From Nemertoderma westbladi (lineage: Eukaryota > Animalia > Xenacoelomorpha): 64,000 bases of DNA. The stretch covers positions 62,001 through 126,000 of the forward strand of contig JAUCBJ010002659.1 of assembly GCA_032718475.1 (NCBI GenBank), given 5' to 3'. The notes below the pieces were generated by a model. That model worked only from the letters and a program-made list of their open reading frames with translations. It had not been told where the DNA came from and did no database searches. This document shows positions 40,332 through 62,000 of the stretch, piece by piece. A program made the translations under genes and the position numbers. Numbering within the stretch: position 1 is the first letter of the stretch; the number at the start of each line of letters is the position of its first letter.

Positions 40332-43300
40332 CACTGCGCGGGTAAATACCGTAAACACTGCGAGGGTAAATACAGAAAAGAGTTTGTGGGTAAATACTGA
40401 AAAGAGTTCGTGGGTAAATATCGAAAACACTGCGCAGGTAAATACCGAAAACACTGCGAGGGTAAATACAGAAAAGAGTTCGTGGGTAAATACCGAAATG
40501 AGTTTGTGGGTAAATACAGAAAAGAGTTCGTGGGTAAATACTGAAAACAATGCGCGGGGAAATACCGAAAACACTGTGCGGGTAAATACCGAAAAGAGGT
40601 AATGGGTAAATACCGAAAACACTGCGCGGGTAAAAACCGAAAGAGGCGGGTAAATACCGAAAAGAGTTTGTGGGTAAATACCGAAAAGAGTTCGTGAGTA
40701 AATACCGAAAAGAGTTCGTGGGTAAATACCGAAATGAGTTCGTGGGTAAATACCGAAAAGAGGTAATGGGTAAATACCGAAAACACTGCGTGGGTAAAAA
40801 CCGAAAGAGGCGGGTAAATACCGAAAAGAGTTTGTGGGTAAATGTCGAAAAGAGTTCGTGGGTAAATATCGAAAAGAGTTTGTGGGTAAATACCGAAAAG
40901 ACTTTGTGGATAAATACCGAAAAGAGTTTGTGGGTAAATGTCGAAAAGAGTTCGTGGGTAAATATCGAAAAGAGTTTGTGGGTAAATACCGAAAAGACTT
41001 TGTGGATAAATACCGAAAAGAGTTCGTGGGTAAATACCGAAAAGAGTTCGTGGGAAAATACCGAAAAGAGTTCGTGGGTAAATACCGAAAAGAGTTCGTG
41101 GGTAAATACCAAAAACACTGCGTGGGTAAATACCGAAAAGAGTTTGCGGGTAAATACCGAAAAGAGGTAATGGGTAAATACCGAAAACACTGCGTGGGTA
41201 AAAACCGAAAGAGGCGGGTAAATACCGAAAAGAGTTTGTGGGTAAATATCGAAAAGAGTTTGTGGGTAAATACCGAAAACACTGCGTGGGTAAGTACCAA
41301 AAAGAGTTCGTGAGTAAATACCGAAAAGAGTTCGTGGGTAAATACCGAAATGAGTTCGTGGGTAAATACCGAAAAGAGGTAATGGGTAAATACCGAAAAC
41401 ACTGCGTGGGTAAATACCGAAAAGAGTTTGGCGGGTAAATACCGAAAGGAGGTAATGGGTAAATACCGAAAACACTGCGCGGGTAAAAACCGAAAGAGGC
41501 GGGTAAATACCGAAAAGAGTTTGTGGGTAAATACCGAAAAGAGTTCGTGAGTAAATACCGAAAAGAGTTCGTGGGTAAATACCGAAATGAGTTCGTGGGT
41601 AAATACCGAAAAGAGGTAATGGGTAAATACCGAAAACACTGCGCGGGTAAAAACCGAAAGAGGCGGGTAAATAACGAAAAGAGTTTGTGGGTAAATGCCG
41701 AAAAGAGTTCGTGGGTAAATATCGAAAAGAGTTTGTGGGTAAATACCGAAAAGACTTTGTGGATAAATACCGAAAAGAGTTCGTGGGTAAATACCGAAAA
41801 GAGTTCGTGGGTAAATACCGAAAAGTGTTTGTGGGTAAATACCGAAAAGAGTTCGTGAGTAAATACCGAAAAGAGTTCGTGGGTAAATACCGAAATGAGT
41901 TCGTGGGTAAATACCGAAAAGAGGTAATGGGTAAATACCGAAAACACTGCGCGGGTAAAAACCGAAAGAGGCGGGTAAATACCGAAAAGAGTTTGTGGGT
42001 AAATATCGAAAAGAGTTTGTGGGTAAATACCGAAAACACTGCGTGGGTAAGTACCGAAAAGAGTTCGTGAGTAAATACCGAAAAGAGTTCGTGGGTAAAT
42101 ACCGAAATGAGTTCGTGGGTAAATACCGAAAAGAGGTAATGGGTAAATACCGAAAACACTGCGCGGGTAAAAACCAAAAGAGGTGGGTAAATACCGAAAA
42201 GAGTTTGTGGGTAAATGCCGAAAAGAGTTTGTGGGTAAATACCGAAAAGAGTTCGTGGGTAAATACCGAAAAGAGTTCGTGGGTAAATACCGAAAATAGT
42301 TCGTAGGTAAATACCGAAAAGAGTTCGTGGGTAAATACCGAAAAGAGTTCGTGGGTAAATACCGAAAAGAGTTCGTGGGTAAATACCGAAAAGAGTTCGT
42401 GGGTAAATACCGAAAAGAGTTCGTGGGTAAATACCGAAATGAGTTTGTGGGTAAATACCGAAAAGAGTTCGTGGGTAAATACCGAAAAGAGTTCGTGGGT
42501 AAATACCGAAAACACTGCGTGGGTAAGTACCGAAAAGAGTTCGTGGGTAAATACCGAAAAGACTTTGTGGATAAATACCGAAAAGAGTTCGTGGGTAAAT
42601 ACCGAAAAGAGTTCGTGGGTAAATACCGAAAAGAGTTCGTGGGTAAATACCGAAATGAGTTCGTGGGTAAATACCGAAAATAGGTAATGGGTAAATACCG
42701 AAAACATTGCGCAGGTAAAAACCGAAAGAGGTGGGTAAATACCGAAAAGAGTTTGTGGGTAAATACCGAAAAGACTTTGTGGATAAATACCGAAAAGAGT
42801 TTGTGGGTAAATACCGAAAAGAGTTTGTGGGTAAATACCGAAAACACTGCGTGGGTAAGTACCGAAAAGAGTTCGTGAGTAAATACCGAAAAGAGTTCGT
42901 GGGTAAATACCGAAATGAGTTCGTGGGTAAATACCGAAAAGAGGTAATGGGTAAATACCGAAACCACTGCGCGGGTAAAAACCGAAAGAGGCGGGTAAAT
43001 ACCAAAAAGAGTTTGTGGGTAAATACCGAAAAGAGTTCGTGGGTAAATACCGAAAAGAGTTTGTGGGTAAATACCGAAAAGAGTTCGTGGGTAAATATTG
43101 ATAAGAGTTCGTGGGTAAATACTGAAAAGAGTTCATGGGTAAATACCGAAAAGACTTTGTGGATAAATACTGAAAAGAGTTCGTGGGTAAATACTGAAAA
43201 GAGTTCGTGGGTAAATACCGAAAAGAGTTCGTGGGTAAATACCGAAATGAGTTCGTGGGTAAATACCGAAATGAGTTCGTGGGTAAATACCGAAAGAGGT

Positions 43301-45985
43301 AATGGGTAAATACCGAAAACACTGCGTGGGTAAAAACCGAAAGAGGCGGGTAAATACCGAAAAGAGTTTGTGGGTAAATACCGAAAAGACTTTGTGGATA
43401 AATACCGAAAAGAGTTCGTGGGTAAATACCGAAAAGAGTTCGTGGGTAAATACCGAAAAGAGTTCGTGGGTAAATACCGAAAAGAGTTCGTGGGTAAATA
43501 CCGAAAACACTGCATGGGTAAATACCGAAAAGAGTTCGTGAGTAAATACCGAAAAGAGTTCGTGGGTAAATACCGAAATGAGTTCGTGGGTAAATACCGA
43601 TAAGAGGTAATGGGTAAATACCGAAAACACTGCGCGGGTAAAAACCGAAAGAGGCGGGTAAATACCGAAAAGAGTTTGTGGGTAAATATCGAAAAGAGTT
43701 TGTGGGTAAATACCGAAAACACTGCGTGGGTAAGTACCGAAAAGAGTTCGTGAGTAAATACCGAAAAGAGTTCGTGGGTAAATACCGAAATGAGTTCGTG
43801 GGTAAATACCGAAAAGAGGTAATGGGTAAATACCGAAAACACTGCGCGGGTAAAAACCAAAAGAGGTGGGTAAATACCGAAAAGAGTTTGTGGGTAAATG
43901 CCGAAAAGAGTTTGTGGGTAAATACCGAAAAGAGTTCGTGGGTAAATACCGAAAAGAGTTCGTGGGTAAATACCGAAAAGAGTTCGTGGGTAAATACCGA
44001 AAAGAGTTCGTGGGTAAATACCGAAAAGAGTTCGTGGGTAAATACCGAAAAGAGTTCGTGGGTAAATACCAAAAAGAGTTCGTGGGTAAATACCGAAATA
44101 AGTTTGTGGGTAAATACCGAAAAGAGTTCGTGGGTAAATACCGAAAAGAGTTCGTGGGTAAATACTGCGTGGGTAAGTACCGAAAAGAGTTCGTGGGTAA
44201 ATACCAAAAAGACTTTGTGGATAAATACCGAAAAGAGTTCGTGGGTAAATACCGAAAAGAGTTCGTGGGTAAATACCGAAAAGAGTTCGTGGGTAAATAC
44301 CGAAATGAGTTCGTGGGTAAATACCGAAAACACTGCGAGGGTAAGTACCGAAAAGAGTTCGTGAGTAAATACCGAAAAGAGTTCGTGGGTAAATACCGAA
44401 AACACTGCGAGGGTAAGTACCGAAAAGAGTTCGTGAGTAAATACCGAAAAGAGTTCGTGGGTAAATACCGAAATGAGTTCGTGGGTAAATACCGAAAAGA
44501 GGTAATGGGTAAATACCGAAAACACTGCGCGGGTAAAAACCGAAAGAGGCGGGTAAATACCAAAAAGAGTTTGTGGGTAAATACCGAAAAGAGTTCGTGG
44601 GTAAATACCGAAAAGAGTTTGTGGGTAAATACCGAAAAGAGTTCGTGGGTAAATATTGATAAGAGTTCGTGGGTAAATACCGAAAAGAGTTCATGGGTAA
44701 ATACCGAAAAGACTTTGTGGATAAATACTGAAAAGAGTTCGTGGGTAAATACCGAAAAGAGTTCGTGGGTAAATACCGAAAAGAGTTCGTGGGTAAATAC
44801 CGAAATGAGTTCGTGGGTAAATACCGAAATGAGTTCGTGGGTAAATACCGAAAAGAGGTAATGGGTAAATACCGAAAACACTGCGTGGGTAAAAACCGAA
44901 AGAGGCGGGTAAATACCGAAAAGAGTTTGTGGGTAAATACCGAAAAGACGTTGTGGATAAATACCGAAAAGAGTTCGTGGGTAAATACCGAAAAGAGTTC
45001 GTGGGTAAATACCGAAAAGAGTTCGTGGGTAAATACCGAAAAGAGTTCGTGGGTAAATACCGAAAAGAGTTCGTGGGTAAATACCGAAAACACTGCATTG
45101 GTAAATACCGAAAAGAGTTCGTGAGTAAATACCGAAAAGAGTTCGTGGGTAAATACCGAAATGAGTTCGTGGGTAAATACCGAAAAGAGGTAATGGGTAA
45201 ATACCGAAAACACTGCGCGGGTAAAAACCGAAAGAGGCGGGTAAATACCGAAAAGAGTTTGTGGGTAAATACCGAAAAGAGTTCGTGGGTAAATATTGAA
45301 AAGAGTTCATGGGTAAATACCGAAAAGAGTTCGTGGGTAAATACCGAAAAGACTGCGTGGGTAAATATTGAAAAGAGTTCATGGGTAAATGCCAAAAAGA
45401 GTTCGTGGATAAATACCGAAAAGAGTTTGTGGGTAAATACTGAAAAGAGTTCGTGGGTAAATATTGAAAAGAGTTCATGGGTAAATACCGAAAAGAGTTC
45501 ATAGGTAAATACCGAAAAGAGCTCGTGAGTAAATACCGAAAAGAGTTCGTGGGTAAATACAGAAAACACTGGGCGGGTAAATACCGAAAACACTGCGAGG
45601 GTAAATGCAGAAAAGAGTTCATGGTTAAAAACCGAAAAGAGTTCGTGGGTAATACCAAAAAGAGTGTGCGGGTAAATACTGAAAACACTGCAAGGGAAAA
45701 TACCGAAAACACTGCGTGGGTAAATACTGAAAAGAGTTCGCGGTTAAATACTGAAAAGAGTTCGTGGGTAAATACCGAAAAGAGTGCGCGGGTAAATACC
45801 GAATACACTGCGCGGGTAAATACCGAAAAGAGTTCGCGGGTAAATACCGAAAACACTGCGCGGGTAAATACCGAAAGGAGTTAGTGGGTAAATACCGAAA
45901 ACACTGCGAGGGTAAATACAGAAAAGAGTTCGCGGGTAAATACCGAAAACACTGCGCGGGTAAATACCGAAAAGAGTTCGTGAGT
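40322..45985. repeat. 24-bp satellite, right block (~235 units, with higher-order variant order)
   Basis: Visible tandem array with a near-constant GGGTAAATACCGAAAA core and recurring 8-nt variants. Confidence 0.97.
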
Positions 45986-45989
45986 TCTG

Positions 45990-46560
45990 TCAAGATACAC
46001 TACCTAAGGTAAAAATTATAGATTCTGTAATTTCCGAGGTCGTATATACTAAGTACTTGGGTGTTCTGATTGACAGTAAACTGAATTTTAAAGAACACAT
46101 ATCTATCATCAGGTATATTTTATAGGCTTCGTCACATTTTTCCACTTTATATTCTCCGTACCCTATTTTTCGCTCTTATTTATCCCTATTTACAATACGC
46201 CATTGTCGTGTGGGGAAGTACATATCTGTCGATTTTAAAACCACTTAGAATCAAAATTAAAAAGCACTTCGAGTAATCACCTTCAGCCATTGGCAATCAT
46301 CTTCACTCCCTCTCTATCAACAACTTAATATACTCCCTTTGGATCAATTATAAAATATCAAGTTTATAATATTATGTTTGATGTACATAACAACATCCCA
46401 ACTCCACTTGAGCCTCTATTTCAAAGAGCGTCTTCAATCCATTCATACAATACTCGCTTTTCGGCATCTGGCTTATTTCATCCTCCTCACATTAGGCTAT
46501 GTGTTGCAGAACAATCTCTTTCATTCCAAGGAGCCCGCCTGAGGAATGCTCTGGATGAAA
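45990..46560 (+). pseudogene. CR1/L2-group LINE 3' RT fragment
   Basis: KYLGVLIDSKLNFKEHI, FALIYPYLQYAIVVWG, KKALRVITF and HSYNTR motifs with stops and frameshifts. Confidence 0.8.
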
Positions 46561-49187
46561 GATGCGCTTGCTACCTTTGGTTCCAGTTATCTTAATGGGA
46601 ATGATGCTAAACCCTTTTAACTGGTTCTTCGTGAGGACAGTTATACGTAAACGTGAACGTAGAAGGTTTCATCTTCCGAATCTTTCTCCTCCGATGATCC
46701 TGACTGGTCGAAGTAGTTGGTATAAAAGGTTTGAACCTCTCTTTACAAACCTTTTTTTCCTCTGCTTTATAAACAGCGTTGCACTTGGCTACTTTATTGG
46801 GATGTTCGCGTTGGAAATGTTTGGTGGGAGTGTGGCTGATGGTGTGGAGCAACGTGTCATGGTTGCATGCACATAAAGGAGAAGTATCCTCATTTGGGCA
46901 GTCCTTATGGACATGTCCAGACTTGGTGCACCTCCAGCAAGAATCTAGCGGACGTATCCCCTCCTCTCCTCCACTCTGAGGTCTCTAAAAATGCTACATC
47001 CGTGCAACTTGTGTCCGCTATATTGTCTGCCGTTCCTTTCGCAGAACTGGTATCCGTCAAATTCTGCAGACAACTGATGTCGTGATTGTTTGGCTCCAAT
47101 GGGTGTCAAAACCTTTGAAGTATCCATCGGGGTCATATAGGTCACAGCCTTTGCATTGTCGGAAGCTGTTTAGACCGATTCGGCGCCACAATCGTGATTC
47201 CTTCTGCCGCTATGTGATGGTCCGTATAGTTAGACCATGTCTCTACCACCGCCTCTCAAGAGATCAGTTTGTAGATGTCTGTTAACCTCAATAATCCACC
47301 AGCCTCTTTGCGCTGATACTCCACCTTGTGCCATTCTTGACGCAGTCGATGATTGAGCCAGCCGATAATCCTAATCAGAACCATCGGCGCCTTGGTGTAT
47401 TCTAGTAGACAGATAGACTGCAACGTTCCTATAGCATTCTTTACCTCATCTGCTAATCGTAGAAGATCTATAGGTTTCGAAATGGGTCCACCTCAACAGA
47501 AGTCTTCTATGATGGATTTAGACATGGTGACATTACCGCTGTATATGGAAAATAGAAGGTCGTACGCTAGCTCGAAAGCATCCGGAACTCCTATGAAGGT
47601 TTCTGCTAACCTTTTTGGCTCATCCGAGAGTACCTGAAGTAGGTAGTTGAACTTCTCCGTAGAGGTGAAGGCACACACGGCTATTTGGGAGACAACGTAG
47701 TCTACTAACGTACGCCAATGCTTCGTGTTACCTGAAAACTTCGGCAGTTGTTGTGCCGGTAATCCATGTCTGGCTCTGGACTTGACGATCTCGTCTCCGT
47801 CTCTGTTTGTCGTCGCGCTCTCTGTCTGGAGATGGCATTCAGCCGATCCTGTCTGGGTGAAGTTCATCGATAGGGGTCATAACCGATGGGATCTTCTCCT
47901 CTAGGATTTGGAGTTTGTTGTAGTTCTGGTTCCCTATAAGGTGGTCACTATGGTTGAGATTGGGGTTGTTCTAAATCCGCGCTGGCTCGCAATCGATCCG
48001 AAGGCGGCGCTTCGAGCTACTCTTCGATTTGAGCCAACCGGTCCGCTACAGGTCACATCATCTTGGTAAGTTGTTTAGCGCTAATCACCTCTACTGGTTG
48101 CGACGTAGGTTTCTGTACAGGTGTTTCGTGTGGATGATTATCGATTTATGGGTTTTTCAATCTCTCCGGTTCTCGTTTGAATTTGCCTGCCACTCCAGTA
48201 CGGATTATCTCCCTTTCCGTGGACTCCGCGTCGCTAGATGAGTTGCTGTTGTCGGGATATGGTGGCTGGCGTGTTTGCATTCAGCATATTATTATAGTCG
48301 GCGACATTCATTTTGGTTCGGCATCCATGTTATTCGTCGCTCGGTAGGTTGCTGGCGTGCGATCTCCTGTTGTTGTCGAGTAATCACTGATGTTGTCCAA
48401 CTAACATTGCAGCCTGGCTCCATACGCTGATGAACGATTTATCCAGGTGAGGGTTTTGGTAGGCTCGTGAGCCTTCCATAGCGAGAACTCCTGTCTTCTC
48501 TCCCAGTACAACTTCCAGTTCGTTGATCGGTACGTTGCTACTATAGAGCAAGTCAGTAAGTGCTTCTAACTTCCCATCCAGGCAGTATAGTTCTTCTTCC
48601 TCTTCGGGTTGTAACAATGCGTCCCTCACCTAACAGTTGGTTAAGTTGTTCCCGTTGGTCGATCCTACAACCAACTTAAACAGAATGAGACTTTATCTAG
48701 CACTTACCAATTTATATATTATTTTTACATGGATAAAATTGTCACCGAGTAACTCCGCTACTTCATGTAAACTTCGGAGTTTATTTATGGAGGTATGTAC
48801 CCTACTTTCTACTCTTACCTATAGGGCATAAAACTCGTATCTGGACATTGGAGCCATTAATTCGCGTACGACGCGAAAACCTTATCCGATACATCGAGTA
48901 ATTTGAGCCATGCATCCTCCTATACTCCTAATAATGTTCTCCTGGCTTCCAGTCGAACCTACCATGTCTGGTTCCTGTGATCTAGTTTGCGGGATGGTAA
49001 GGAAGTGTTCGGTTCTACCGTTGCCTCGTGCTACGGCTTCCGGTATTTCTGTTGGCGGTACCAGCGATGCAATCAGTGTGACATCGGTAGAAACGCGAGT
49101 CCTCCTTCTGGGTTTGTCTACTGTCGATCTGTCTGCATCACACGATTCATAGTTGGTAGGGGGGTTTCTAGTTGAGTGCCGTCTCAT
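46561..49187 (-). pseudogene. BEL/Pao LTR-retrotransposon gag plus start of protease region, degenerate and truncated
   Basis: DUF1759-like LPKFSGNTKHW...EKFNYLLQVLSDEPK (47493-47867). BEL-type Cys/His knuckles CTKSGHVHKDC...LCACNHDTLLH (~46840-46930). IIPIKITGTKGSKRI pre-protease segment ends at 46561. Multiple frameshifts and stops. Confidence 0.8.
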
Positions 49188-49324
49188 GTCGGTATTATAT
49201 ACGTCAAGTACAGATCATAATAAATGTAAAATGTCAAAATGTCGAAATGTCAAACTTACCTTGGTATATATATATATATACCCGAACCGGTACAAAATAA
49301 AATCACAAAATAGTATATAATAAT

Positions 49325-49520
49325 TTAATAAGTAATTAAACAGGACTAAGGATGATCCAACTCTATAGCAAATGGAGCGGAAAAAATGAATTCACCACCA
49401 GCGGGGATTGAACCCGCGTCTCCCGATAAACATTCAGGTATGCTAACCACTACACCACGGAGGACTACTCCATTTGCTATAGAGTTGGATCATCCTTAGT
49501 CCTGTTTAATTACTTATTAA
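49325..49520. repeat. Perfect 53-bp inverted repeat (49325-49377 / 49468-49520) enclosing a tRNA-like gene
   Basis: TTAATAAGTAATTAAACAGGACTAAGGATGATCCAACTCTATAGCAAATGGAG and its exact reverse complement, 90 bp apart. Confidence 0.95.
49393..49464 (-). ncRNA. tRNA-like Pol III unit (72 nt; GTT in anticodon position; probably not a translating tRNA)
   Basis: TCCTCCGTGGTGTAGTGGTTAGCATACCTGAATGTTTATCGGGAGACGCGGGTTCAATCCCCGCTGGTGGTG. A box TGGTGTAGTGG, B box GGTTCAATCC. D, anticodon and T stems pair; acceptor stem has two mismatches. T6 terminator 6 nt downstream. Confidence 0.75.
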
Positions 49521-51654
49521 TTTATATAATCTATGGATGTTAAACACATATACAAGTATATAATAATATTATAAATTAGCCTACCGGCTAATTCTGTACC
49601 AATAAGTGGGATAGCGGTATACGCTATCAAAAAATAGATCAACAAGTACGAATAATAAGACAAACAACAGCAACGACTAGGGGAAATATAATACCAATAA
49701 ATGCATAATTTTAGACAGCGGAACCCACGAATGTTGAGTAATACTATGCTCTAAGTTTAAACGACACGAGTCGTAAAACTTACACTCCTTTGAACTTCCA
49801 GTTGTACAGATCCCCAGATACAAACCAGACGAGAACTGTTCCGTTTCCAGCGTCACGGACGAATCCTTTACCTCCCAAACTAGCTGAAAAACGGCCTGAT
49901 CCCCAAGGCGATCCAGAAATGAGTCATTGTGTCCTGAAAAATCGAAGGTGAGAGTTTTACGGCCTACTCTACAAAATAAATTCAAAGGTACCACCCATAC
50001 TAATTCGTCTTTAAACCCTAAGTACCTTCTCGAGTACCAAAAAAAATAACACCACACACACACACAGCCTTAAGACAAAATTTAGTTACAAATTAACGTA
50101 TAGCTAATCAAATACAAACTGTTATACAATTACGTAAATAAACATCGTTCACTGTAAAATCCAGTAACTGTTGTACAATATCTACTGTAAAATCCCAGCA
50201 TAACCATGCCTTAAAATAGATACTAAAGTACACAAACTACTACTGGCGAGATCGGTGCCTGATGTCTTCTACTGAACTTGGGCGAATCAATTGCCTGGGC
50301 TAACTCGACAATCAGGGTGACTGGTCCCTAACTGGTGAGGCAGAAGTACAGTCAACAAAAAGGACCAAACTCGTGAGAAAAGATTCCCCATGTAGCAAAT
50401 CCTAACTACCGTTAATAGCCCTAAACTATGGTAGACTTGCCACGGTGTGATTTATATGGGTATAACAAACCAGTGGGTTGACAACGCTAGTGTAAAACAA
50501 TACTGCCAATCCAGAAAGCAGTCAAAAGGGTGGTATAAATATCAGTAGAATAACAATCTTAAGACGCGTGTGTGTGTGTATGTGTAAATTTCAGTTAATG
50601 TGATCTCTACTAGGTTTTGGTGACTTTTAACAAAATACATCAGGCATAAGCTACTGAAATAAGCTAGTCGCTCTCTGTAGGTGTAATAATACTTACAAAC
50701 TGACGTCAAAGAAAAAAAGCTGTCTCCTCCTATGTTCACAACTCGATCGGGCAAGTACAGTGTCAGTAACTACACCCGTAATCGGCACTTTATACCAGAC
50801 TCTGATTGTGAAAATAGAGAATAGGGTGTTAATTGCTACCGTACCGCTATGTATCTGATCTGGTATGAAATTTTAATCTATAACTTTGTTGCCGTGGTGG
50901 TATGCAGCAAATATCTAGCAGTACGTAGCAAGGGCCGGCAATATGTTAGTAAACGTCCTTAGCCTAAATGGTGTGCCAGTAACAGAAAGCTACCCTTTAC
51001 CTGAGCAAATACGTCAAACCCAGACAGATCAGTTGAAAGCAAAGCCTACAGCGCTAACTGGTACTGAATCGCTAGTACGATAAAGTCACCAAATTATAGT
51101 GTGCTATTTGCACCTAGTGTACCTGTGCGTACGAACAAACAGCACCAGCTCGCACCTGTGAACGATGCAGGTCAACCATGGGGTTTCTGTCTAGATCCGA
51201 GATATTTTACTCCTACATTTTACAGCGTCCCAGGACGTCGTCACACTTTACCCTGATCTAAGGTCTTAGGGTGGATAAAGGCGTCAAACAAAGTCTTACC
51301 TCTGGCATGGGCACTCTCAGGCTCTCGAATCATGGTCTAAGTGCGCGCGTGCGAATAGTTCGCTTATGCGAACTATTATCCCTTATGCGTTGCGGGCATT
51401 CCTCCCCCTTGCACTGCTGTAGCCTAAAGGTTTAGACAGCCATCCCTCTAATGTCGGCTGTTTTCAAGATATGCTAACATATTTTGATTTTTCAATATAT
51501 TTTAACGTAAGCAAATGATTTAACAAATTTATACTACTATTAGTATTACAAGTGAGATAAGTTTTACAAACAGTTAGATTAGACTAAAACTAAACAAGTG
51601 AAGATTAGATAGTTTACAACTAAGAAGAAGGGGTAGATAACTGAAGGGCAAAGG

Positions 51655-51830
51655 GTACCTTTTATAGTAAAGCTGGGGTGTGGAATCGCACTAGAACCTT
51701 CTACAACATTCTATGAGCTCACATTGGTCCAATAACTTATTTAGCACATCCTATCGGTCCAGCTAATCAGTTCTACTAAGTGTACGCACAATATTGGTTC
51801 AACTAATGCTGTACAGATGGGCGGTATATA
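51655..51830 (-). promoter_or_regulatory. LTR U3 Pol II promoter (TATA, CCAAT and GC boxes)
   Basis: Minus-strand TATAAAAG near 51659-51666; ATTGG/CCAAT at ~51723-51733 and ~51794; GGGCGG at ~51818. Confidence 0.55.
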
Positions 51831-51865
51831 CGAAATTGAAATAAATCATTACAAAAAATACAAAT

Positions 51866-51939
51866 GTTACCAATAGGGATTTGAACTCGCGACCTAATAT
51901 ATGCACGACTTACGCGTTAACCTACTAGGCTATTGGACC
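51866..51939 (-). ncRNA. Second, more degenerate tRNA-like Pol III unit inside LTR U3
   Basis: GGTCCAATAGCCTAGTAGGTTAACGCG...AGGTCGCGAGTTCAAATCCCTATTGG. A box TAGCCTAGTAGG, B box AGTTCAAATCC, T6 at 51853-51858. Stems imperfect. Confidence 0.55.
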
Positions 51940-52203
51940 AGTCGATGTAAGTATGTCAAAATATGTTTGATATAGCAAATATATAGTTTTTTTAAATAAA
52001 TCGTAACAGCAAGGCAAATATATCGAAAATTTTGAATTTTTTACGTAAAATCAGTGTACAAATAGCTATCTAAAGGAAATAATTCCACATACACCCACCA
52101 CCACAAATTTGGTTGGAGTGTACAGTACGCATACTGCACTAGAGCCTTTTTTGCATTTATTAGTCTAATATAGATTTGTTAATCCAAGTGCAGCACTCAT
52201 AAA

Positions 52204-54471
52204 ATGATACTTTTCATTATATTAAATGTGAACTTATATATTTTGGTGAGCAGTTTAGATCCATTGTATCTTTGTGATAAATCGAAACCAACGGGTGACT
52301 TCTACACTATAGCTGACGCACCGGAATGCGAAAAGGACACAAATGTCAGCGACTTCCAAGACCATAAAATCAGTGTCTATTACCCTTATGTTCCAAGGCC
52401 GCTGTTTAAAATTGAAGGCTATGTTTGCATTCTAACTCAAAATAGTAAAGTTACAAATTGTAATGCTGATGGGCTTTGGGAACAGATGAAAGGGTGGCAC
52501 GACAAAGATATCGTTCAGAAGTCATGTACAACCGCTAATACTGCTAGAAACAAGTTACAAATTGGTATGGATGAATGCGTGGAGTGGATGGAAGCTAAAG
52601 ACTGTAAAGCATCAATGAAAAGGTATCCGGAAATAGATCCAGAAAATAGTGAAACCAGAATGAAGGCTACTGTTCCACAGGGACCCTTCAACACGCAACT
52701 AACTAAAAAAGATGGTAGTTCTACCTGGTCTACTCATAACGGGATGGCTACAGGCATAGAGGAAGCCATGGTGGTGCATATAGGAGAATGTGAGATGCAA
52801 TGGATTTCTATAACTCTTACCCCAGACCCTGAAGAAATCGGGCAAATAAATATGATATGCCAAACCATGGATGATAGTTACGATTGCACAAATTGCAAGC
52901 TTGAAGATAATAAGTGCGAACTTACTGCATATTATGCACTTGTGTGGGATGCATTGTCAGTCCAATTAAAGGTGGGGGATATTAATAAACTTTACCAACG
53001 TGTTGTCAATGTCGAGAAAGATACAAGGGCTGCCATTGTTTTTGACAAAGATAGGTTTCCAGTCAAAATTACCATACCGGATATGTCTATGGCATTTAAC
53101 CCTAAAAAAGCAACGTTTCGAGAGATAACTTCAACAAATGACAAAGACGGAAGACATTGCGAAGGTTACGAAAAAGAAACAGATGTTGGGGTAATTGAAG
53201 ATGAAGAAATATGTTATGTTGATTTGGAATCTAAGAGAGTCTACGTATTTGAAGTAAAAAAAGAAGAATTACAAACGGAAAAAGTAGCTAAAATGAAGGA
53301 GGGAATCAATGCACAACGAACCGGTCAGACTGAACGAAAAAGAAGAAGAAGACAATCAGTTGAAGATTACAATAATCGATTGATCTACCTAGCTGACAGA
53401 TTGACGGCCGTATTGAGACAAACCAAACTAGATTTGGTATATCAAACGTGTTTGCGTCGTCAAGATGAGTACGCCATGTGGAATATGTTGGCAGAAATCA
53501 ATCCGGAAGTTGTCATGAAAGCCTTCCATATCGCTGGTTCGGGTCGTTATGTCGGCAATTTTATCGCATCGCATCTTTGCCAAAAAATAACAGATTACAC
53601 CGTGGTAGACAGTTTAATGATGGAGGAATCAGATAAAACGATCGATAAGCAAAGTGATGATACAGTCAATAATGCCACCAACTCTACAGGAAACACTAAC
53701 AATTCTGATGAAAATTGGAATAGAGCATATTGGAAAGAAATTGGCTATGAGGGTGCAGACAGGCCGAAATGCGCAAACAGACCTATAATATTGTGGAATA
53801 ATACAAAATACCAATTAGGAATAGACGGCCATCCTACCTATGATCTAATTGAACTCACCAACTGCCAGGAAAAGAATGTTAAATTCCACTTTAAGATAGG
53901 GGGCACGATTTTTACCTACATCAACTACACGAAATACCATATATCTCAATCATTTCCGAAGATTCAACCAAACGAGCCATTCAAATTTACGCATTCATCG
54001 CCGGTGAAGTTTAAAAGCATCCCGGATGTTTACAACCACCGTTCTGGACAAAGTGACCTACAGGCTTTGCGGAATAGTAGAGCAAAGATTTGGACAAAAA
54101 GACAACAAGTAAATAAATATTATTATCAGATTCGAAAAAATAATTCTGAACAAAACAGAGAGCTGGATCCTTATGACATGAGTTTATCGGGAATGCTGAA
54201 AGGCGTCGTCAGTACTATTTTCGATAGCTTTGCATACAAATTGTTGGAATATATTACAGGAGATTTCGCCCAGAAAGTGGTGCTAGTCTTTTTGTTGACG
54301 GGTTGCGTTTGTGGATGGATGGGGTTTGCGTTCATGATACTGGATCTTCTTGTTGAGTTTGGGTGTATCGGCAAGAAGGATCTAGGGAAGAAGAAGAAGA
54401 AACCGGTATCGAAGTTGTTCGAGAAAAAGAACAATAAAGTTAAACAATCATCTGTCTATGTAGCAGGATGA
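52204..54471 (+). CDS. Viral-type envelope fusion glycoprotein, herpesvirus gB-like (class III), 755 aa, intact and intronless
   Basis: Signal peptide MILFIILNVNLYILVSS; Cys-rich ectodomain; furin site RKRRRR. gB domain III/IV-like motifs TCLRRQDEYAMWNMLAEINPE..GRYVGNFIASHLC, CANRPII..YQLGIDG..TNC..FHFKIGGTIFTYINY. Several N-glycosylation sequons, C-terminal TM helix and basic tail. Confidence 0.85.
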   Translation: MILFIILNVNLYILVSSLDPLYLCDKSKPTGDFYTIADAPECEKDTNVSDFQDHKISVYYPYVPRPLFKIEGYVCILTQNSKVTNCNADGLWEQMKGWHDKDIVQKSCTTANTARNKLQIGMDECVEWMEAKDCKASMKRYPEIDPENSETRMKATVPQGPFNTQLTKKDGSSTWSTHNGMATGIEEAMVVHIGECEMQWISITLTPDPEEIGQINMICQTMDDSYDCTNCKLEDNKCELTAYYALVWDALSVQLKVGDINKLYQRVVNVEKDTRAAIVFDKDRFPVKITIPDMSMAFNPKKATFREITSTNDKDGRHCEGYEKETDVGVIEDEEICYVDLESKRVYVFEVKKEELQTEKVAKMKEGINAQRTGQTERKRRRRQSVEDYNNRLIYLADRLTAVLRQTKLDLVYQTCLRRQDEYAMWNMLAEINPEVVMKAFHIAGSGRYVGNFIASHLCQKITDYTVVDSLMMEESDKTIDKQSDDTVNNATNSTGNTNNSDENWNRAYWKEIGYEGADRPKCANRPIILWNNTKYQLGIDGHPTYDLIELTNCQEKNVKFHFKIGGTIFTYINYTKYHISQSFPKIQPNEPFKFTHSSPVKFKSIPDVYNHRSGQSDLQALRNSRAKIWTKRQQVNKYYYQIRKNNSEQNRELDPYDMSLSGMLKGVVSTIFDSFAYKLLEYITGDFAQKVVLVFLLTGCVCGWMGFAFMILDLLVEFGCIGKKDLGKKKKKPVSKLFEKKNNKVKQSSVYVAG

Positions 54472-54849
54472 GAACCGAAAAGTGAAGGCCAGATGGAATA
54501 GAACCTGCAATCTTTATACAACCTCTATGCAACATATGTAACATATGGAGATTCTGTATCGATTTTATAGTATAATCATTAGGTGTGGAACATTTTTATT
54601 GTAGACATAAATAAGTACCAAACCGAATCATTTTCGAATCATAGCGAATCATTTTCTAGACCAGTGGATACTATAATTTACCAACTGTAATTGAGAGAAT
54701 GTTATCAGTATGCCTTGGGCCTTCAGTATAATAAAAGTATTTTATGTTGTGTTATGAACCTTCTTAATTCATTACCATTAATTTATTACCATTAATTTAT
54801 TACCATTGCCATGTATGTATTTCCAGTTGTACAAAATACTTTAATATAA

Positions 54850-55360
54850 TAATAATTTATGTGCCTGGGTGAATGGAGGGGATGTTGCTCCCTGATATAT
54901 GTACCATCCACGGACCTGGTGTCTTCAGCAGTTAGAGCCAAGAGTGGGCTGTCATAGAGCAGAACCGGCTCATCTGCTACATAGAAAGCCGCACCTTTAA
55001 AGAGCACGAGATATCAAGTCTCTTCCAGATCCTGAATAGCTAGTAGTTTGTGGAAGTTACTGCAGAAGTTCTATAGAGGTCTTTAAATACCACGGTTTAA
55101 ATATATTGTATACAAATTTATAACAGATAAAAGGAAATTTCCTTTTGTATATCTGTATAATTTGAATAGCTTGTGCATTCCAGACCGGGCTTTCCCTTTG
55201 CGATTACGGAGATCTTCAATGTAGGAGAATTCATTCACATGACTTATACCAGTCCATCCAGCGATTGAATGTTATAACGGTCAATTTTCTTCTGTCTGAG
55301 TTCATATTTTCTGTCAGAATTTTGATCTGTCAAATTCACAAAGATCCACATAGAAAGTTG
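54850..55360 (-). pseudogene. Highly degenerate RTE-type LINE 3' remnant
   Basis: PVLLY..LALTAEDTRSVDGTY and EDLRNRKGKA motifs homologous to the RTE at 57700-57930. Confidence 0.6.
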
Positions 55361-55627
55361 CGAGCCCAGGGGCTATGAGCAATTGCCTCTGTTAAGCTAA
55401 CAGAGAAGATTTGTTCGCTGATAATTTTAGTCGGTGAGTTATTGGCAATGTTAGTTCTCTGTCTGATAAGTCACTGTTAAAGGGTGAGTTTTACGTTCAC
55501 TGTTAGTTCTCTGTGAACTAACTGAGAACATTTTCCTTAACAGAGGTAAAACCTCTGTTTAGGCTATTAGCAGAAGCACGTGTTAACACACCATGTAATA
55601 TTGCCAACTGTAATATTTAACATTAAC

Positions 55628-58600
55628 ATGTGGCGTGTTCAGTTTGACATAGAAATTGGTAACAGGCGTAAACCAGTATATAATAAGAAGTACAACCCGT
55701 TATCCCAATTACGACAATATGATTTTTTTGAAAGGTTCAGGTTTTATCCTGTTCATTTTGAAGAAATTCTTTCAGTTATTCGTGGTGACATCATGTTAGA
55801 TCCAAAGAAGGGTGTTTCCTGAAATACAGTTGGCTATACTACTACCAGGTACTACGCTGATGGAGGGTATGCCAGAGCTGTTGGAGATTTACATTATCTC
55901 TGGAAATGGATTGTTTTCGGCTGGAACCCAGTTCAAGAAGCGAACTGGAAAGCTATGGACTCATAGTGGACCCAGTGGTCACAAGTCCCAGATAGACCAT
56001 ATCCTGTTTCGTAGGAAATACAGGAGCTCTATACAAGACTGTAATGCATTTACACTACGACCCTTCTCCAGTGATCACTGCCTTATTGTGGTTCAAGGTA
56101 AGACTTAGTCTGCGTGCTAGCAGAACAACGAAATCTGCCTTGCCGCGGCATGACTGGTCCTCTCTGTTGCAACAGCCAAGTGTGAGATCCAGCTTCACAC
56201 TACAGCTGAGCAAGAGGTATGAGGTTCTTGCCTCTGAGGCGGCAGATCACTGTGAGGGCTATACTGCCTTCACAGAGGCAGTTAAGTTAGCAGCTGCAGA
56301 AACAGTTCCTGTATACCCTCGAAACAGGAAACGGGCCCCCTGGACTGACAACAAAATTCAGAAGTGCCGAAATGACCTCTACAAGGCGCAGAAAGAGTCC
56401 CGACTCAAACAGACTACAGCGGCCAAGAATGCAGTAAAGGCTGCATCTAGGTTACTGAACAGGCAGTACTTTGTTAATTTACCGGAGCTAATAAACCAAC
56501 AGGTTGATGCCATCAATCATGCTGACGACATCACAGGCATGGAGATCGATCAACTTGCTTGCTTGTCGAAAAAGCCAACCAACCACCAAGGTTAAGGCTG
56601 AATCACCAGCCGATCGCCTCAATGGTTGGAAGGCCCACTTTGAAAAGCTCCTCAATAATGACAGGGTATTGCCTGATAACTTTATAGAAGTAAAAGTGTC
56701 TGAGTCTGTACTCCCAGATATTCCCATTGGTGATATCTCCTTTGCAGAAGTGAAGGCTGCTGCAAAGAGCATTAAGACCAATCGTGCCAGTGGAGTAGAT
56801 GGTGTTCCCCCTGAGGTCTTTAAAATACCTGAGTGTTAAAGCTCATCTATCCCATCATAGTAGACATGTACCGAACAACAAGAAATGAAAACAAATAAGT
56901 TGGTGCCAGTTCCCAAGAAGGGCAACCTAACACTCTTTGGTTCTTATCGGGGAATCTCATTGATCTCGATTGCTGCAAAGCTATACAATAGAATTCTATT
57001 AAATCGCATCAGGGATCCCATTGAGAGACTGCTCCGTGGAAATCAGAATGGGTTCCGTAAAGGTCGTGGGACCATGGAGCCCATTTTGGCACTTAGAAGG
57101 ATAATTGAAGAGTTATCAAAAAAGAAAGACAGGCATCTGGCTGTTATCTTTGTTGACTTCTTCAAGGCCTTTAATTTAGTCTCTCGTTCACGTATGTTCA
57201 GCATACTTTCATTATATGGGATTCCTGATGAAATTATTGCAGCAATCAGATCAGTATGCGATGGTTCGACAACATTTGTGTCTACTGTTGACGGTGACAC
57301 ATAACCATTTGAAGTGTTATGGGGCGTCCTCCAGGGAGACACACTTGCACCATTCTTGTTCGTAATTGTTGTTGACTATGTTCTACGCATGTTCTTAGAT
57401 CATCATAATGATGATGGGGTGATGATAACTCCACCTACTGGCTCCAGAAGTCGAGGAATTCCTGCCAAGTACCTAACTGATCTAGACTTTGCTGTTGACT
57501 TAGGAGTACTCTCAGAATCACTAGAGGGAGCCCAATGGCTCCTCAGCTCATTAGAACATGCTGCTTCCAGTGTTGGTCTTTTTATTAACTCCAGAAAGAC
57601 CAAAATTCTGACAGTTAACTTTGAAAGTCCTCAGCAAGTCTCTGATCGGATGAGCATAAGCTCAAAAGATGGTATGCTTGAGCATGTGGATGACTTCTGT
57701 TACCTGGGATCATGGATCCGGAAGTCAGGTGAGGACCTTCGAATACGTAAGGGAAAGGCATGGGCAGCCTTGAATAGGCTCTCCAGGATTTGGAAGTCAC
57801 CGAGAATTAATCGGAAACTTAAGGTCCGATTATTTAGAGCAGCAGTAGTTCCAGTACTCCTCTATGGGAGTCCATGCTGGGCTCTAACTGCTGAGGACAC
57901 CAAATCTCTGGATGGCACATTCACAAGAATGCTACGCCGGGTTCATTGTGTCAAGTACAATGCACACATCTCCAACGGGACACTATATAACATTGGAGGT
58001 GTCTCATTGGTTCCCCCAAGCTTGACACTAGAACAAAATCGCCTCCGCTTTGCAGGACATTGCTTTCGCCGTGAGGACCAGCCAGTGCATAATCTTGTAC
58101 TTTGGCAGCCTCATGGAGTGAATAAGCATGGTGGACAGCCCATGACTTTCTTGAGACGCATCTTAAAGGACACTGGCCTTGAAGATGCGGATAATCTAGC
58201 AAATGTCATGGGTGATAGGGAGTTGTGGCGGAGCAATTTTGTCGATAAGCCGGCACAGCATTCTTAAAAATGCAGCTGCAATGCAGCATGCCGATCCTAG
58301 TAGTAGTACAGCGGCCAAATGCATACATAGGGTGTCCAATGCGTTATACAAACACAAGGATGGGTTCATTACATGGCCTGATACATCCCGCCAAGCCGAG
58401 ATTCAGAAGGAATTTTACGAGTACTCAACGAACCACAGCCAGTATAAAGGAATGCCTGGTACTGTCGGATTGGTTTATGGGACGCACATCAACATTTCAA
58501 CTCCTGTAGATAATGAAAGTGCTTATGTAAATGGACGTAAGAATCGACATACTATAAATACGCAAATTGTATGTGATGCCAAAATGCGTATTTTAGACAT

Positions 58601-59079
58601 TTGTTGTTTCCCAGGCGCTTCGCATGATTCCTTCCTATTACGACAGAGTGGTGTACCTGCGAGATTTCAAGATAACGCTACAGGTTGGTTGTTGGCAGAT
58701 TTGGGGGGGGGGGGGGGTATGGGTTGAAAAAATGGTTGATGACGCCTATTGAGAAGCCACTTACTAGTTCTCAATTGCGGTACAACAGGGCGCATAAGAG
58801 GACGCGGTCGATAGTAGAAAGGGTCAATGGAGTTGTTAAATCTCGATTTCGTTGTCTATCCTTGGAGCGCAAAATACTTGCTTGCGCATGTAAATACATG
58901 CTTGTGCATGTCTACACAATTATGCTATCAGGTGTAATGTACCACTTGTTCCAGTTGATGCACGATATGATGAAGAAGAAATTGCTGATCGTCAATATGA
59001 TGTTCGGGCTACTGTGGAGTACGACATTATTGGTAAAGTTGCACGAGATCGAATTGTGGAGAGATTTTTTCAAGAGTGA
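55628..59079 (+). pseudogene. Harbinger (HARBI1-like DDE) transposase, frameshifted and split by an RTE LINE
   Basis: FFERFRF, PEIQL, RYYADGG..VGDLH | LINE | STAAKCIHRV, GLVYGTHI (catalytic D of DGTH replaced by Y), PGASHDS, LLAD, TRSIVERVNGVVKSRFRCL, RDRIVERFF*. Confidence 0.85.
55901..58305 (+). mobile_element. RTE-clade LINE, 5'-truncated (C-terminal APE plus RT), inserted in Harbinger transposase
   Basis: QIDHILF..SSDH (APE end); VPVPKKG, YRGISL, QNGFR, FVDFFKAF, GVLQGDTLAP, DLDFAVD, YLGS; short (TAG)n tail; several frameshifts. Confidence 0.9.
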
Positions 59080-62000
59080 ACAGGCAATAAACACTAAACA
59101 GAAACTACAGTACAGTAAGTTCATTAAACTTCGCGAACGGTGATGTAAAAGTCAAGGATTATCAATAATTAATTGATGAAAATTTAGATACGTAAAATGA
59201 AATAATAAATAAATATAAGAATGATTTAAAAAAAATTAAAAAATGTATTTTTAAAATAAATGTAAAAAGTATTTTTTTGCAGTTGTACTGTAGTAGGCCT
59301 GCATTTCTTTGAAAACTCCGCACCAAATAAATTAACACGAACGCAAATTTGTTAAAGTAAAATAATTGAGTCTGCAAGACTTATTTTTTTCACACATTAA
59401 ACTGTTATGTGCAAAATTTGATGTTTGGAAAAGAAATATTATATTGAATTGAATTGAGCACTCAAGACTCAAAGTGTAACAAACTTTGAATTTTGGGTGA
59501 TAGGCATCACATTCTGGAAAATGGCCACAAACGATGTGAATAGAAATAGATCGTACTGTAGACGTTAAAGTTATTCTGCCAAGTTTCAGCTCCGCATATA
59601 ACCGGCAAGTCTTAGGACGTTCTAACGTCGTTCTAACGCAAAGAGTCTAAACTTTAAAGAGCCTCTAACTCCATTAATAGCAGCTACAATTTTTGCTACC
59701 GCAACTACCGCTACCGCAAAAAGTAACTACCGTACTATCCCTGCACTACACTAAGGTTCCATCTTGGTGTAGTCAGGTTGCATTGAATTCACATCTCTCC
59801 AGAGTTCGATCCTTGCATGGGGGCCCAGGCAATTTTCATTTCGGCAAGAATTATTTAAAGGGACTAACCAGGGTGCATCTCTTCCCACTAGCATACCGAG
59901 GAATCGGTAAAGGGCGTGGCCATATCTATGCCGGACTTTGGCACTACCACCTCCCACCTCTTCCACCCCCACCCCCCCCCCCCTCCCCCCCAACCAAAAG
60001 ACCCTACCAATCGGATAAAAGCGAAGAGCAACAATTGAAAAATATATTTTCATATTGATCGAAGTAGTAGGTAAAATTAAAAGGCAGTGCATTTCGAATT
60101 TTCTTTCTCATCCATTTTCAATGTTTTACAGAGATTTTCCTACGGTTTCTACGGAGACCTAATTGTAAACAAAAAATACATTTTGTACTGTGATGGGATC
60201 GTAGATCCCGACCGGGTTATATTTTGTATGCGTCGCCTGACTGCTGGTCTGCTGGTTCTTTAGGCTGAGAGCCGTTCGGGAAAATAACAGAGTTTTGTGT
60301 TCCTCAATGTTAATGTTCCAAATGATAATAGCACAGAATTAGTAATGTGACTGATATCGCAATACAGAATGAATGACTGCAGTAAATCGGTAATAGATAT
60401 TAGTTGGCGACGGTCGAAAACTATGACTGGTCTGCAACTCTGTGATTAATGAACTGACCGGTAAATCAGTAATACAGAATAATATATGATTAACACACAC
60501 GGATATTGGTTTCACCTCTTACTCTACTTGGCCTTCTGTACCCAGTGGATGCTCTCCTATCTCTTTTCACGTGCTCCCCTGCCTGCTATTGGCTTACATA
60601 CTAATTGTCACTTTGGCACTCCCTGTGAGTGTTTCCCCCCACCGCTAGCCTTTACAAGCTATGTTCTCCCTCCGAGGTGGTTTGACCTCTCACCTCTCTC
60701 TGTGGCTTTAGGGCTTGTATCGCCCCCCCCCCCCCCCCCCAAAGTTGGTTATGAGGCGAGATTATTATTGGTAATCTCGTATCCCCAACTATATTGGTAA
60801 AATGCCACTGGTCCCATTTTCGGGTGGATAGTGCAATGGAATTGAATCCGCTTACATGTACATACGATTTGTGGGTCTTAAACACACCACCTTCAGGGGG
60901 ACGTGAATTCAAGGCAATGGATTAAACCGCTACGGCTTAATTAGATAACTTCTGATAGTTAAATTTTTGAGGAATTTTTTTTTACTATCTTTCAAGGGGG
61001 ACGCTATAGCCACACGGTCTCCCCCTCGGTACGCTAGTGTACTCTTCCTTGCATCCTTACTTGAGTGGTAGCTACATGAGTACTGGAGTTTCCTCTTGTA
61101 ATTCTCTGGGACCGCACTGGAAATAAGACTTTGTGCGTAATCACTGGCCTACCGGCCGAAGATAACTTTACTTTTACTTTACCTTCACTGTAACCTACTC
61201 CTTTTCATTAATATATTAAATTTAATTATTGAATCGATGCTATCAATATTTTAATTAGGAGGCCCCTATGTGAATTAGAATGGATTTAACAAAATTTTCG
61301 TTAAAAAATAACATTTTTCTGATATTATATTTTTTAGAGCAATGGAGCCTTAAGTTCCACAGGCGTCTTTAAATAAATAATGAGTCTCTTAATACGTTAT
61401 TTTAGGGCTCTACAGTATTATGCAGCTCTTTAGGTTGCGTTGCTGAGTATATAGTTGACCATGCGAGTACACATGAGTAGATCAGTATAAACAATATAGA
61501 CAGTATAGAGTAAACATAATCGGGATCGTGGGTGGCACTACACATTATCAGTGGATGTTTTTATATTGAATCATTAACAAGAATAAAGGGATGCCGCATA
61601 TGGAAATTTTCATACATCAAAGGGACCGCATATGGAAAAGTTAGTTCTCTGTTATTGATCTGCTCATCCCCTAAACAGAAGGCTAACAGAGAACATTTAA
61701 ACAGCGAACTAAAATAGGTAAATTGCTCACCAAATTTGCACTCTCTGATAAAACCCTCTGTTAATGCTCTCTGTTTAAGTTAACAGAAGGCATTAACAGA
61801 GAACCAATTACTCATCGCCCCAGGTCACTGGCGAAAACATATTTAAGTTAGGGGGGGGGGGGGGGGGGGTGTTGCGATCTATTACAGGTGATCAAAGTAG
61901 TATTATAGCCAACTTAAATACGGATATTAGTCTACTATTACACCATGAGGATGGAAAAATACCATCAACACTTTGTTGCACTTGTTGCTTTTAAAACTTG

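What the first reader, a model, noticed from the sequence alone, without database searches (positions are those of the whole stretch)
46561..54471. Candidate new enveloped BEL/Pao retroelement: gag-pro and a gB-like env diverging from one central LTR
Seen: a minus-strand BEL/Pao gag-pro starts 350 bp inside one end of a 2.47-kb LTR-like unit, and a plus-strand gB-like glycoprotein starts 196 bp beyond its other end. The LTR has no TSD, no canonical PBS and no polypurine tract. Established: env genes of LTR elements normally lie 3' of pol in the same sense, and class III gB-like env captures are known in some invertebrate LTR elements. Inference: an element with antisense env driven from U3, preserved as a head-to-tail tandem sharing one LTR or as a re-integrated one-LTR circle (env-LTR-gag permutation). 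Caveat: RT, RNase H and integrase are absent here, so linkage rests on proximity.
Basis: partly seen in the sequence, partly recalled or inferred. Interest (0 to 1): 0.85.

Follow-up and report, generated by a model that had tools for sequence, protein, structure and literature searches.

The report
Kept viral fusion gene, divergent alleles
An intact gene resembling the herpesvirus fusion protein gB sits at single-copy depth beside a dead jumping gene in an animal genome and occurs in two very different versions that are likely alleles, so it is likely a viral envelope gene that the host kept, possibly as an antiviral block, rather than part of a new active enveloped retroelement.

Summary
Partly confirmed. 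A minus-strand BEL/Pao gag and a plus-strand 755-aa gB-like gene are real and adjacent. The claimed 2.47-kb LTR is not: its left 'TG' lies inside an inserted MITE, and the repeat ends at 52089, not 52008. The gag is dead (15 stops in 662 codons, no protease active site, cut by a LINE), and no BEL pol lies beyond the env. The env is intact and single-copy, while the repeat edge beside it is 10-25 times deeper, with unrelated flanks. Public contigs hold a second, collinear env version, about 13% different in the C-terminal half and over 20% in the N-terminal ectodomain, with length changes of 3n. The two versions sum to single-locus depth in two runs, while the dead gag differs by 0-3%. Best reading (0.5): a host-retained gB-type env with deeply diverged alleles, likely acting by receptor interference. 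An antisense-env origin in this BEL family is not excluded (0.25). No genome or RNA-labelled run was available. The scan had not noted this on other DNA.

The parts
45990..46560 (+). 3' fragment of a LINE-like ORF2 (CR1/L2 type by eye, recalled motifs); abuts and cuts the BEL remnant
   Evidence: translation read by eye; multi-copy depth 300-900; no Pfam hit below E 0.08; junction bridged in X1, X2, X3
46561..47200 (-). broken gag C-terminus: zinc knuckles spread over two frames, then about 15 residues resembling the start of the protease; no catalytic motif
   Evidence: zf-CCHC E 0.031; no protease family
47200..49187 (-). BEL/Pao gag main frame, 662 codons with 15 stops; DUF1759
   Evidence: 5' part 48.1-49.15 kb highly repeated, core 46.7-47.4 kb only 1-6 times single-copy depth
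   Evidence: joints 49296-49555 and 49296-49571 in related copies, loose ends at 49336 and 49555
49556..52089 (-). multi-copy non-coding stretch, likely leader plus LTR of the BEL remnant or a patchwork of repeats; sharp terminus at 52089 (TG on the minus strand); inner LTR end and primer site not identified
   Evidence: depth 390-13700; loose ends behind 52089 in 7 (X1) and 4 (X3) contigs, agreement 0.52 and 0.56 against 0.47 and 0.54 for random flanks; no Pfam hit in six frames
52090..52203 (+). single-copy 114-nt spacer / 5' untranslated region of the glycoprotein gene; G-rich run on the minus strand next to the repeat end
   Evidence: depth 30 and 39; sequence
52204..54471 (+). intact gB-like (class III fusion) glycoprotein gene, 755 aa; version A; a second collinear version B exists in public contigs
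   Evidence: versions
54472..54864 (+). single-copy 3' flank with AATAAA at 54730
   Evidence: single-copy depth
54865..55115 (.). repeat that X2 and X3 contigs do not continue into (they leave the window at 54864); holds an RTE-LINE-related piece; approximate right end

Best explanation
The intact, single-copy gB-like gene beside a dead BEL/Pao remnant is likely a viral or retroelement envelope gene kept by the animal host, and its two deeply different versions are likely alleles held by selection. Shown: intact frame, gB-like central helix, single-copy depth, second collinear version, dead gag, no pol. Inferred: it would be transcribed from a promoter at or near the repeat end 114 nt upstream, enter the secretory route by its signal peptide, be cut at the furin-type site and sit as a trimer on the cell surface. 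There it would occupy or mask the receptor used by related enveloped retroelements or viruses (receptor interference); the N-terminal ectodomain (residues 44-399) would diverge fastest because different versions block different invaders. A cell-fusion or recognition role is the next option, since the furin site and anchor are kept.
For: Intact env against dead gag: at the gag's stop density 17 stops are expected in 755 codons, P(0) 4e-8. Env depth 25-40 against 450-1100 at the repeat edge. Version B is collinear: same offset at 52214 and 53400, joints of 295 against 283 and 103 against 106 letters, i.e. length changes of 3n. A+B depth is 28.3+22.9=51.2 in X1 against 50.1 and 48.9 for locus-unique gag contigs; 40.4+55.2=95.6 in X3, where shared contigs run at about 2.0 times X1. 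A alone was seen in X2 (85% cut-off), B alone in X5, both in X1, X3, X4. B differs at 13 of 119, 48 of 378, 41 of 309 and 60 (plus 43 gap letters) of 419 bases and fails 80% over 52333-53055 and 53105-53399, while listed gag pieces differ by 0 of 1272, 1 of 810, 13 (plus 11 gaps) of 799 and 3 of 635. The 40 listed differences in 53430-53736 make no stop: 11 synonymous, 29 in 23 changed codons, pN/pS about 0.65 uncorrected (classed by hand; sites). Precedents: Iris, and Fv4/Rmcf named there; solo chuvirus-like glycoproteins proposed as receptor blockers.
Against: Contig depth is no copy number by the tool's own warning, and X1 may be the window's source. Allelism rests on depth sums in two runs; no record joins B to this locus's flanks, and B's first 147 nt do not align to A's upstream at 80%. 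One of 3 long B records (X5) is one base short within 53600-53699, which would shift the frame. In X1 the main A contig leaves the window at 53569 and A's 3' part has depth 6.8 and 2. The net frame of B's cytoplasmic tail could not be read (12 of 28 indel rows shown). In X3 the gag-core bin is only 26 against about 96. Only 40 of 186 difference rows were shown. No orthologue in another species and no sequence relative was found. Both AlphaFold models were too poor to test the fold. Expression and function are untested.
Confidence: 0.5

Rival explanations
1. The env is this BEL family's own gene, carried antisense just inside the 3' LTR and driven from U3; the locus is a decayed head-to-tail tandem or one-LTR circle insertion. 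The host may have kept the env afterwards, so this can be the origin story of the best explanation.
For: Repeat terminus with TG 114 nt from the env ATG and a G-rich run beside it; B's contig starts 147 nt upstream of 52214 in X1 and X3, close to where a contig next to the same edge would start; few close gag-core copies, so low env copy number is expected; antisense ORFs between pol and the 3' LTR are known in plant Retand elements (abstract).
Against: Flanks beyond 52089 in other copies are about as varied as random ones and their majority letters do not read like the window's spacer; no BEL pol beyond env; inner LTR end, primer site and clean purine tract not found; LTR plus leader of 2.7 kb against 0.2-1.2-kb LTRs; no antisense env in an animal LTR element turned up in searches.
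Confidence: 0.25
2. A and B are paralogues: env genes of two separate, still selfish or recently dead enveloped elements (Ty3/gypsy errantivirus, BEL or Maverick type) whose gag and pol were lost or lie elsewhere; the BEL remnant is a chance neighbour and the host gains nothing.
For: 13-20%+ divergence is usual between element families; gB-type env is widespread in invertebrate LTR elements; apparent broken versions in X5 and X1; repeat-dense region.
Against: Each version is at half-locus depth and the two sum to one locus in X1 and X3; no gag or pol in the env's own sense on either side; no multi-copy signal.
Confidence: 0.17
3. A non-retroviral endogenous viral element: the glycoprotein mRNA of a large DNA virus or a chuvirus-like RNA virus was copied by the BEL reverse transcriptase, joined to its LTR by template switching and inserted, and is drifting or feeding small RNAs.
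For: Lone intron-free glycoprotein next to an LTR-like end; Atlas neighbours are mostly negative-strand RNA virus class III proteins at 0.89-0.90; such elements lie near LTR fragments in arthropods (abstract).
Against: Two full-length, mostly in-frame versions this far apart imply long retention or two independent captures; no other viral gene nearby.
Confidence: 0.08

Closest known systems
Iris (CG4715) of Drosophila, domesticated env of the BEL-clade Kanga elements (PMC1262188; abstract and passages)
   Same: Lone intact invertebrate env, BEL connection, fast amino-acid change, proposed defence role.
   Different: Iris is F-type and has lost its furin site; this gene is gB-type and keeps it. 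Iris diverges between species ('balancing' has 0 occurrences in the text); here two deep versions occur within what the runs label as one organism. Iris has shown expression and orthologues; this gene has neither yet.
Anakin Pao elements and solo chuvirus-like glycoproteins of mosquitoes (PMC7642597; passages)
   Same: BEL/Pao plus gB-like glycoprotein; solo glycoproteins proposed as host receptor blockers.
   Different: Anakin carries the glycoprotein inside two LTRs with full pol and in many copies; the text has no 'antisense' or 'opposite'. Here env points away from gag, lies outside the mapped repeat end, and does not match PF24664 at E<=1.
HSV/gB-type ENV of Ty3/gypsy errantiviruses (PMC13524379; outline, section 5 part 1, section 6 part 2, passages)
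   Same: Signal peptide, ectodomain with cysteine bridges, optional furin site, membrane anchor; very low sequence identity between lineages.
   Different: Those are intact multi-copy GAG-POL-ENV or GAG-ENV-POL gypsy elements; 'antisense', 'opposite' and 'orientation' have 0 occurrences. Here the neighbour is BEL, dead, and on the other strand.
Herpesvirus glycoprotein B (MHV-68 gB 9uv4, KSHV ORF8 9cu4)
   Same: Central helix region aligns over about 80 residues with both cysteines in register.
   Different: Weak scores (E 0.15, 0.61); the N-terminal half has no match; no other herpesvirus gene nearby.
Retand plant LTR retrotransposons (PMC11963269; abstract)
   Same: Precedent for antisense ORFs next to the 3' LTR.
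   Different: Plant gypsy lineage; ORFs are TRP28 proteins, not fusogens.

Membership tests
BEL/Pao (Belpaoviridae) element | BEL-type gag (DUF1759, zinc knuckles) | tested here: met
   DUF1759 26.4 bits against cut-off 25.4, zf-CCHC E 0.031; broken by 15 stops
BEL/Pao (Belpaoviridae) element | pol with protease, RT, RNase H, integrase | tested here: not met
   none in 24 frames over 45980-64000; the one RVT_1 hit lies in the LINE at 56.9-57.7 kb
BEL/Pao (Belpaoviridae) element | two LTRs of 0.2-1.2 kb flanking the genes | tested here: not met
   no second copy; one terminus at 52089; size range
BEL/Pao (Belpaoviridae) element | primer-binding site and polypurine tract | tested here: inconclusive
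   many chance CA-TGG sites, no purine run of 11+ next to 52089, G-rich run with T only
BEL/Pao (Belpaoviridae) element | target-site duplication | not testable with these tools
   the far end was removed at 46560
Enveloped BEL/Pao (Anakin, Tas, Kanga type) | env inside the LTRs and shared by family copies | tested here: not met
   env at single-copy depth, outside the mapped repeat end; full-length copies could not be read, so a rare env-bearing subfamily is not excluded
gB-like class III fusion protein | sequence match to the gB central helix with paired cysteines | tested here: met
   PF00606 E 4.3e-5, below curated cut-off; 2 of 2 PDB hits are gB; Atlas class III families, 172 of 256 features
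gB-like class III fusion protein | five-domain trimeric fold with fusion loops | tested here: inconclusive
   single-sequence models pLDDT 31 and 43; fold searches gave nothing at E<=0.001
gB-like class III fusion protein | signal peptide, membrane anchor, optional furin site | tested here: met
   hydropathy and motif scan
Domesticated env gene (Iris, syncytin, Fv4 kind) | intact single-copy ORF amid decayed element sequence | tested here: met
Domesticated env gene (Iris, syncytin, Fv4 kind) | signs of selection on the frame | tested here: inconclusive
   3n length changes, no stop in 40 differences, pN/pS about 0.65; but one B record is a base short and allelism is inferred
Domesticated env gene (Iris, syncytin, Fv4 kind) | orthologues at the same site in related species | not testable with these tools
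   no genome held; no relatives
Domesticated env gene (Iris, syncytin, Fv4 kind) | expression and host function | not testable with these tools
   needs RNA-labelled reads and bench work

The most novel reading that the evidence does not exclude
A gB-type fusogen that came from a BEL/Pao element carrying its env antisense under the U3 promoter was domesticated by an invertebrate and is now held as ancient balanced alleles, more than 20% apart in the receptor-facing half, in the manner of MHC or self-recognition loci, acting as allele-specific viral block or as a fusion/recognition protein.
Probability: 0.15. Interest if true: 0.85.

Novelty: new variant of a known kind. Interest (0 to 1): 0.55.

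Why it matters
Host-kept envelope genes shown in invertebrates are few; the best studied, Iris, is F-type, and kept gB-type glycoproteins are proposed but untested in mosquitoes. A gB-type gene with no sequence relative among 1.84 billion representatives, an intact furin site and anchor, and two versions far more different than the flanking DNA would be a direct test case for allele-specific receptor interference, or for a virus-derived recognition or fusion protein, in an animal. If the antisense origin also held, it would add a gene order not found in the papers searched here for animal LTR elements.

Tried and rejected
No genome held, so other copies could only be seen as contig pieces. Word-based protein searches found nothing for env or for the gag core among longer proteins. 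The one profile hit, P0001, is a bacterial PPC-repeat protein and was rejected. No related loci in viral or metagenome contigs; the one DNA-pattern hit L001 shares only 22 bases. AlphaFold single-sequence models and their fold searches were uninformative. The Atlas search of residues 330-680 gave only class II families under 0.9 and was not counted. A degraded ORF or hammerhead in 49.6-52.1 kb: no Pfam hit, Rfam found only the MITE's tRNA. No RNA holder listed; X4 covers env pieces but not the repeat edge and X5 is poor in repeats relative to env B, which could fit RNA or reduced libraries, but their kind is not on record and this is not counted. X5's lack of A, of B's 5' part and of the gag core is a hole and proves nothing. 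Earlier-findings look-ups by sequence, words and nearby place returned nothing.
Full report
What is there. The window is animal-like, repeat-rich DNA. On the plus strand, 52204-54471 is one open frame of 755 residues with an N-terminal hydrophobic segment, a furin-type site at 378-383, a membrane segment near 688-723, a basic tail, 21 cysteines and 7 glycosylation sequons. Pfam matches herpesvirus gB at residues 393-470 (E 0.001; E 4.3e-5 for residues 385-620; both under the curated cut-off). In the PDB the only 2 hits at E<=10 for that part are gammaherpesvirus gB chains, with the central helix and its cysteines in register. The Atlas lists class III families at 0.89-0.90 with 172 of 256 features, at a recognition value that makes this weak evidence. 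The spacing of C24/C42, C416/C459 and C523/C554 resembles HSV gB (recalled, no call). The fold was not shown: both single-sequence models failed and fold searches were blank. No sequence relative was found.

The gag. On the minus strand, the frame from ATG 49187 to 47200 has 15 stops in 662 codons and holds DUF1759 above its cut-off. Zinc knuckles follow in two other frames, then about 15 residues that look like the start of a BEL protease, and at 46560 the element is cut by a LINE-like fragment (read by eye). No protease, LTR-type RT, RNase H or integrase was found in 18 frames over 45980-55973 or 6 frames over 55799-64000, which hold an RTE-like LINE RT and a DDE transposase. So 'gag-pro' is a dead gag.

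The claimed LTR. No genome is held, so I laid public contigs: 5 of 6 listed runs, from 3 studies; X1 may be the window's source and X2, X3, X4 are one sample. The tool warns that summed contig depth is no copy number; I use it as an order of magnitude. The stretch 49538-52008 has no second copy in the window, and its end motifs occur 6 and 8 times in 3.3 kb. A MITE with 58-nt arms and a tRNA-like core sits at 49.3-49.55 kb; related copies join 49296 to 49555 or 49571, so the left boundary at 49538 is MITE sequence. Depth in X1 runs from 8809 at 49.5-49.85 kb to 393 at 51.6-51.95 kb, and is 6300-7100 over the gag 5' part, so there is no LTR-shaped plateau. The repeat ends sharply at 52089: 7 contigs in X1 and 4 in X3 leave there, with agreement 0.52 and 0.56 against 0.47 and 0.54 expected for random flanks. 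The window reads TG there on the minus strand, so this may be a true LTR end, 114 nt before the env ATG. Its inner end and primer site were not found. ICTV gives 0.2-1.2 kb for LTRs of this family (PMC8742986, whole text).

Does env travel with the element? Right of 52089 depth falls from 450-1100 to 28-40. The junction is bridged in X1 and X3, so the adjacency is real. If the locus were a tandem, pol of the first unit should follow env; it does not, within the 9.5 kb left in the window. The other copies' flanks do not read like the window's spacer. Against my reading: close copies of the gag core are few (bins of 26-85 at 46.7-47.0 kb), so few full-length members may exist, and a G-rich run beside 52089 could be a worn purine tract.

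The unexpected result. A second env version, B, appears in 4 of 5 runs (X1, X3, X4, X5; X2 was laid only at 85% and shows A alone); A appears in X1-X4. B is collinear: the same offset at 52214 and 53400, and joints of 295 against 283 and 103 against 106 letters. It differs at 13 of 119 bases in the signal region, fails 80% over 52333-53055 and 53105-53399 (residues 44-399 apart from 285-301), and differs at 48 of 378, 41 of 309 and 60 plus 43 gap letters of 419 further on. The table showed 40 of 186 difference rows, all in 53430-53736: codon positions 12/14/14; by hand 11 are synonymous and 29 change 23 codons, none makes a stop; over 66.7 and 269.3 sites that is pN/pS about 0.65, uncorrected. 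Listed pieces of the dead gag differ from the window by 0 of 1272 and 0 of 356 (X1), 1 of 810 and 1 of 639 (X2), 13 plus 11 gaps of 799 and 3 plus 1 of 635 (X3); that table shows only the longest pieces. In X1, A plus B is 51.2 against 50.1 and 48.9 for locus-unique contigs; in X3, 95.6 where shared contigs run about twice X1. B's 3' part in X3 (55.2) exceeds its 5' part (30.5), which may hide a third version. The 2-base gap in X3's A lies in 52100-52199, before the ATG, by bin depth (39.0 against 39.8). Against: no record ties B to these flanks; X5's B is one base short within 53600-53699; X1's main A contig leaves the window at 53569 and the rest of A is at depth 6.8 and 2; X3's gag-core bin is low; the frame of B's tail could not be read.

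How it likely works. At the gag's rate of decay 17 stops are expected in a frame this long (P of none 4e-8), so env is either much younger than the gag or kept by selection. Two long versions with 3n length changes favour selection, and depth sums favour one locus. I infer a host-kept envelope gene: transcribed from near the repeat end, secreted, cut by furin, displayed as a trimer, and most likely blocking the receptor of related enveloped elements or viruses, with the receptor-facing half diverging between alleles. Occasional broken alleles fit a dispensable defence gene better than an essential fusogen. All steps after 'intact frame' are inferred (0.5). Rivals: antisense env of this BEL family (0.25, and compatible with later retention), paralogues of selfish elements (0.17), a drifting viral insert (0.08).

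Comparison with what is known. Iris is a BEL-derived, F-type env kept by Drosophila under positive selection, without its furin site (PMC1262188, abstract and passages). Mosquito Pao elements carry chuvirus-like gB proteins, and solo copies are proposed as receptor blockers (PMC7642597, passages; PMC10084718, abstract). gB-type env is widespread in gypsy elements in GAG-POL-ENV or GAG-ENV-POL order (PMC13524379, outline, two section parts and passages). Antisense ORFs are known in plant Retand elements (PMC11963269, abstract); Tor elements drive env from an internal promoter (PMC4402516, passages); PMC3118150 and PMC5408684 were seen as passages. Seven searches (listings only unless named) showed no antisense env in an animal LTR element and no kept gB-type env with deep alleles; the library lacks most subscription papers and Repbase, and no supplements were read, which could list such elements. 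Earlier scan notes showed a BEL pol elsewhere in this genome and tRNA-headed ribozyme repeats, untested leads; nothing like this locus.

Verdict. Observation partly confirmed; interpretation partly supported. Not a working new enveloped BEL element on this evidence, but a candidate domesticated gB-type gene with unusual allelic depth. New variant of a known kind; interest 0.55.

Noticed in passing
window 49297-49555: MITE whose inverted arms enclose a tRNA-Asn-like sequence scoring above the Rfam cut-off (42 bits); very high depth in three runs; the left arm looks shortened in this copy.
   Followed up: partly
window 51865-51940 (minus): A second tRNA-like stretch by eye (7-bp stem, B-box-like motif) inside the multi-copy region; not called by ARAGORN or Rfam.
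   Followed up: partly
window 48825 / 49153: A joint on opposite strands in X1, X2 and X5: a repeated relative carries an inversion of the gag 5' part; 48.1-50.9 kb is far more repeated than the gag core, suggesting a non-autonomous derivative family.
   Followed up: no
window 49680-50069 (minus): 130-codon open frame followed by a hydrophobic stretch inside the multi-copy region; no Pfam match.
   Followed up: partly
window 3-2624 and 19233-24787: Two tandem ABCA-type transporter genes (by eye) with very long uninterrupted coding stretches (873 and 1518 codons).
   Followed up: no
window 27516-30171: 59 perfect copies of a 45-bp unit (100% matches), unusually homogeneous; may be a young expansion or an assembly artefact.
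   Followed up: no
window 5024-12043, 34199-35366, 40340-45982: Large 30-, 15- and 24-bp satellite arrays; 68-bp arrays at 12804, 15706 and 62435 in both orientations.
   Followed up: no
window 55800-59143: Broken RTE-like LINE (RVT_1 E 1e-22) followed by a broken DDE_Tnp_4 transposase; a related LINE piece lies at 25.2-25.6 kb.
   Followed up: partly
window 37482-40130: Broken non-LTR element with RT-like and C-terminal restriction-like endonuclease motifs by eye.
   Followed up: no
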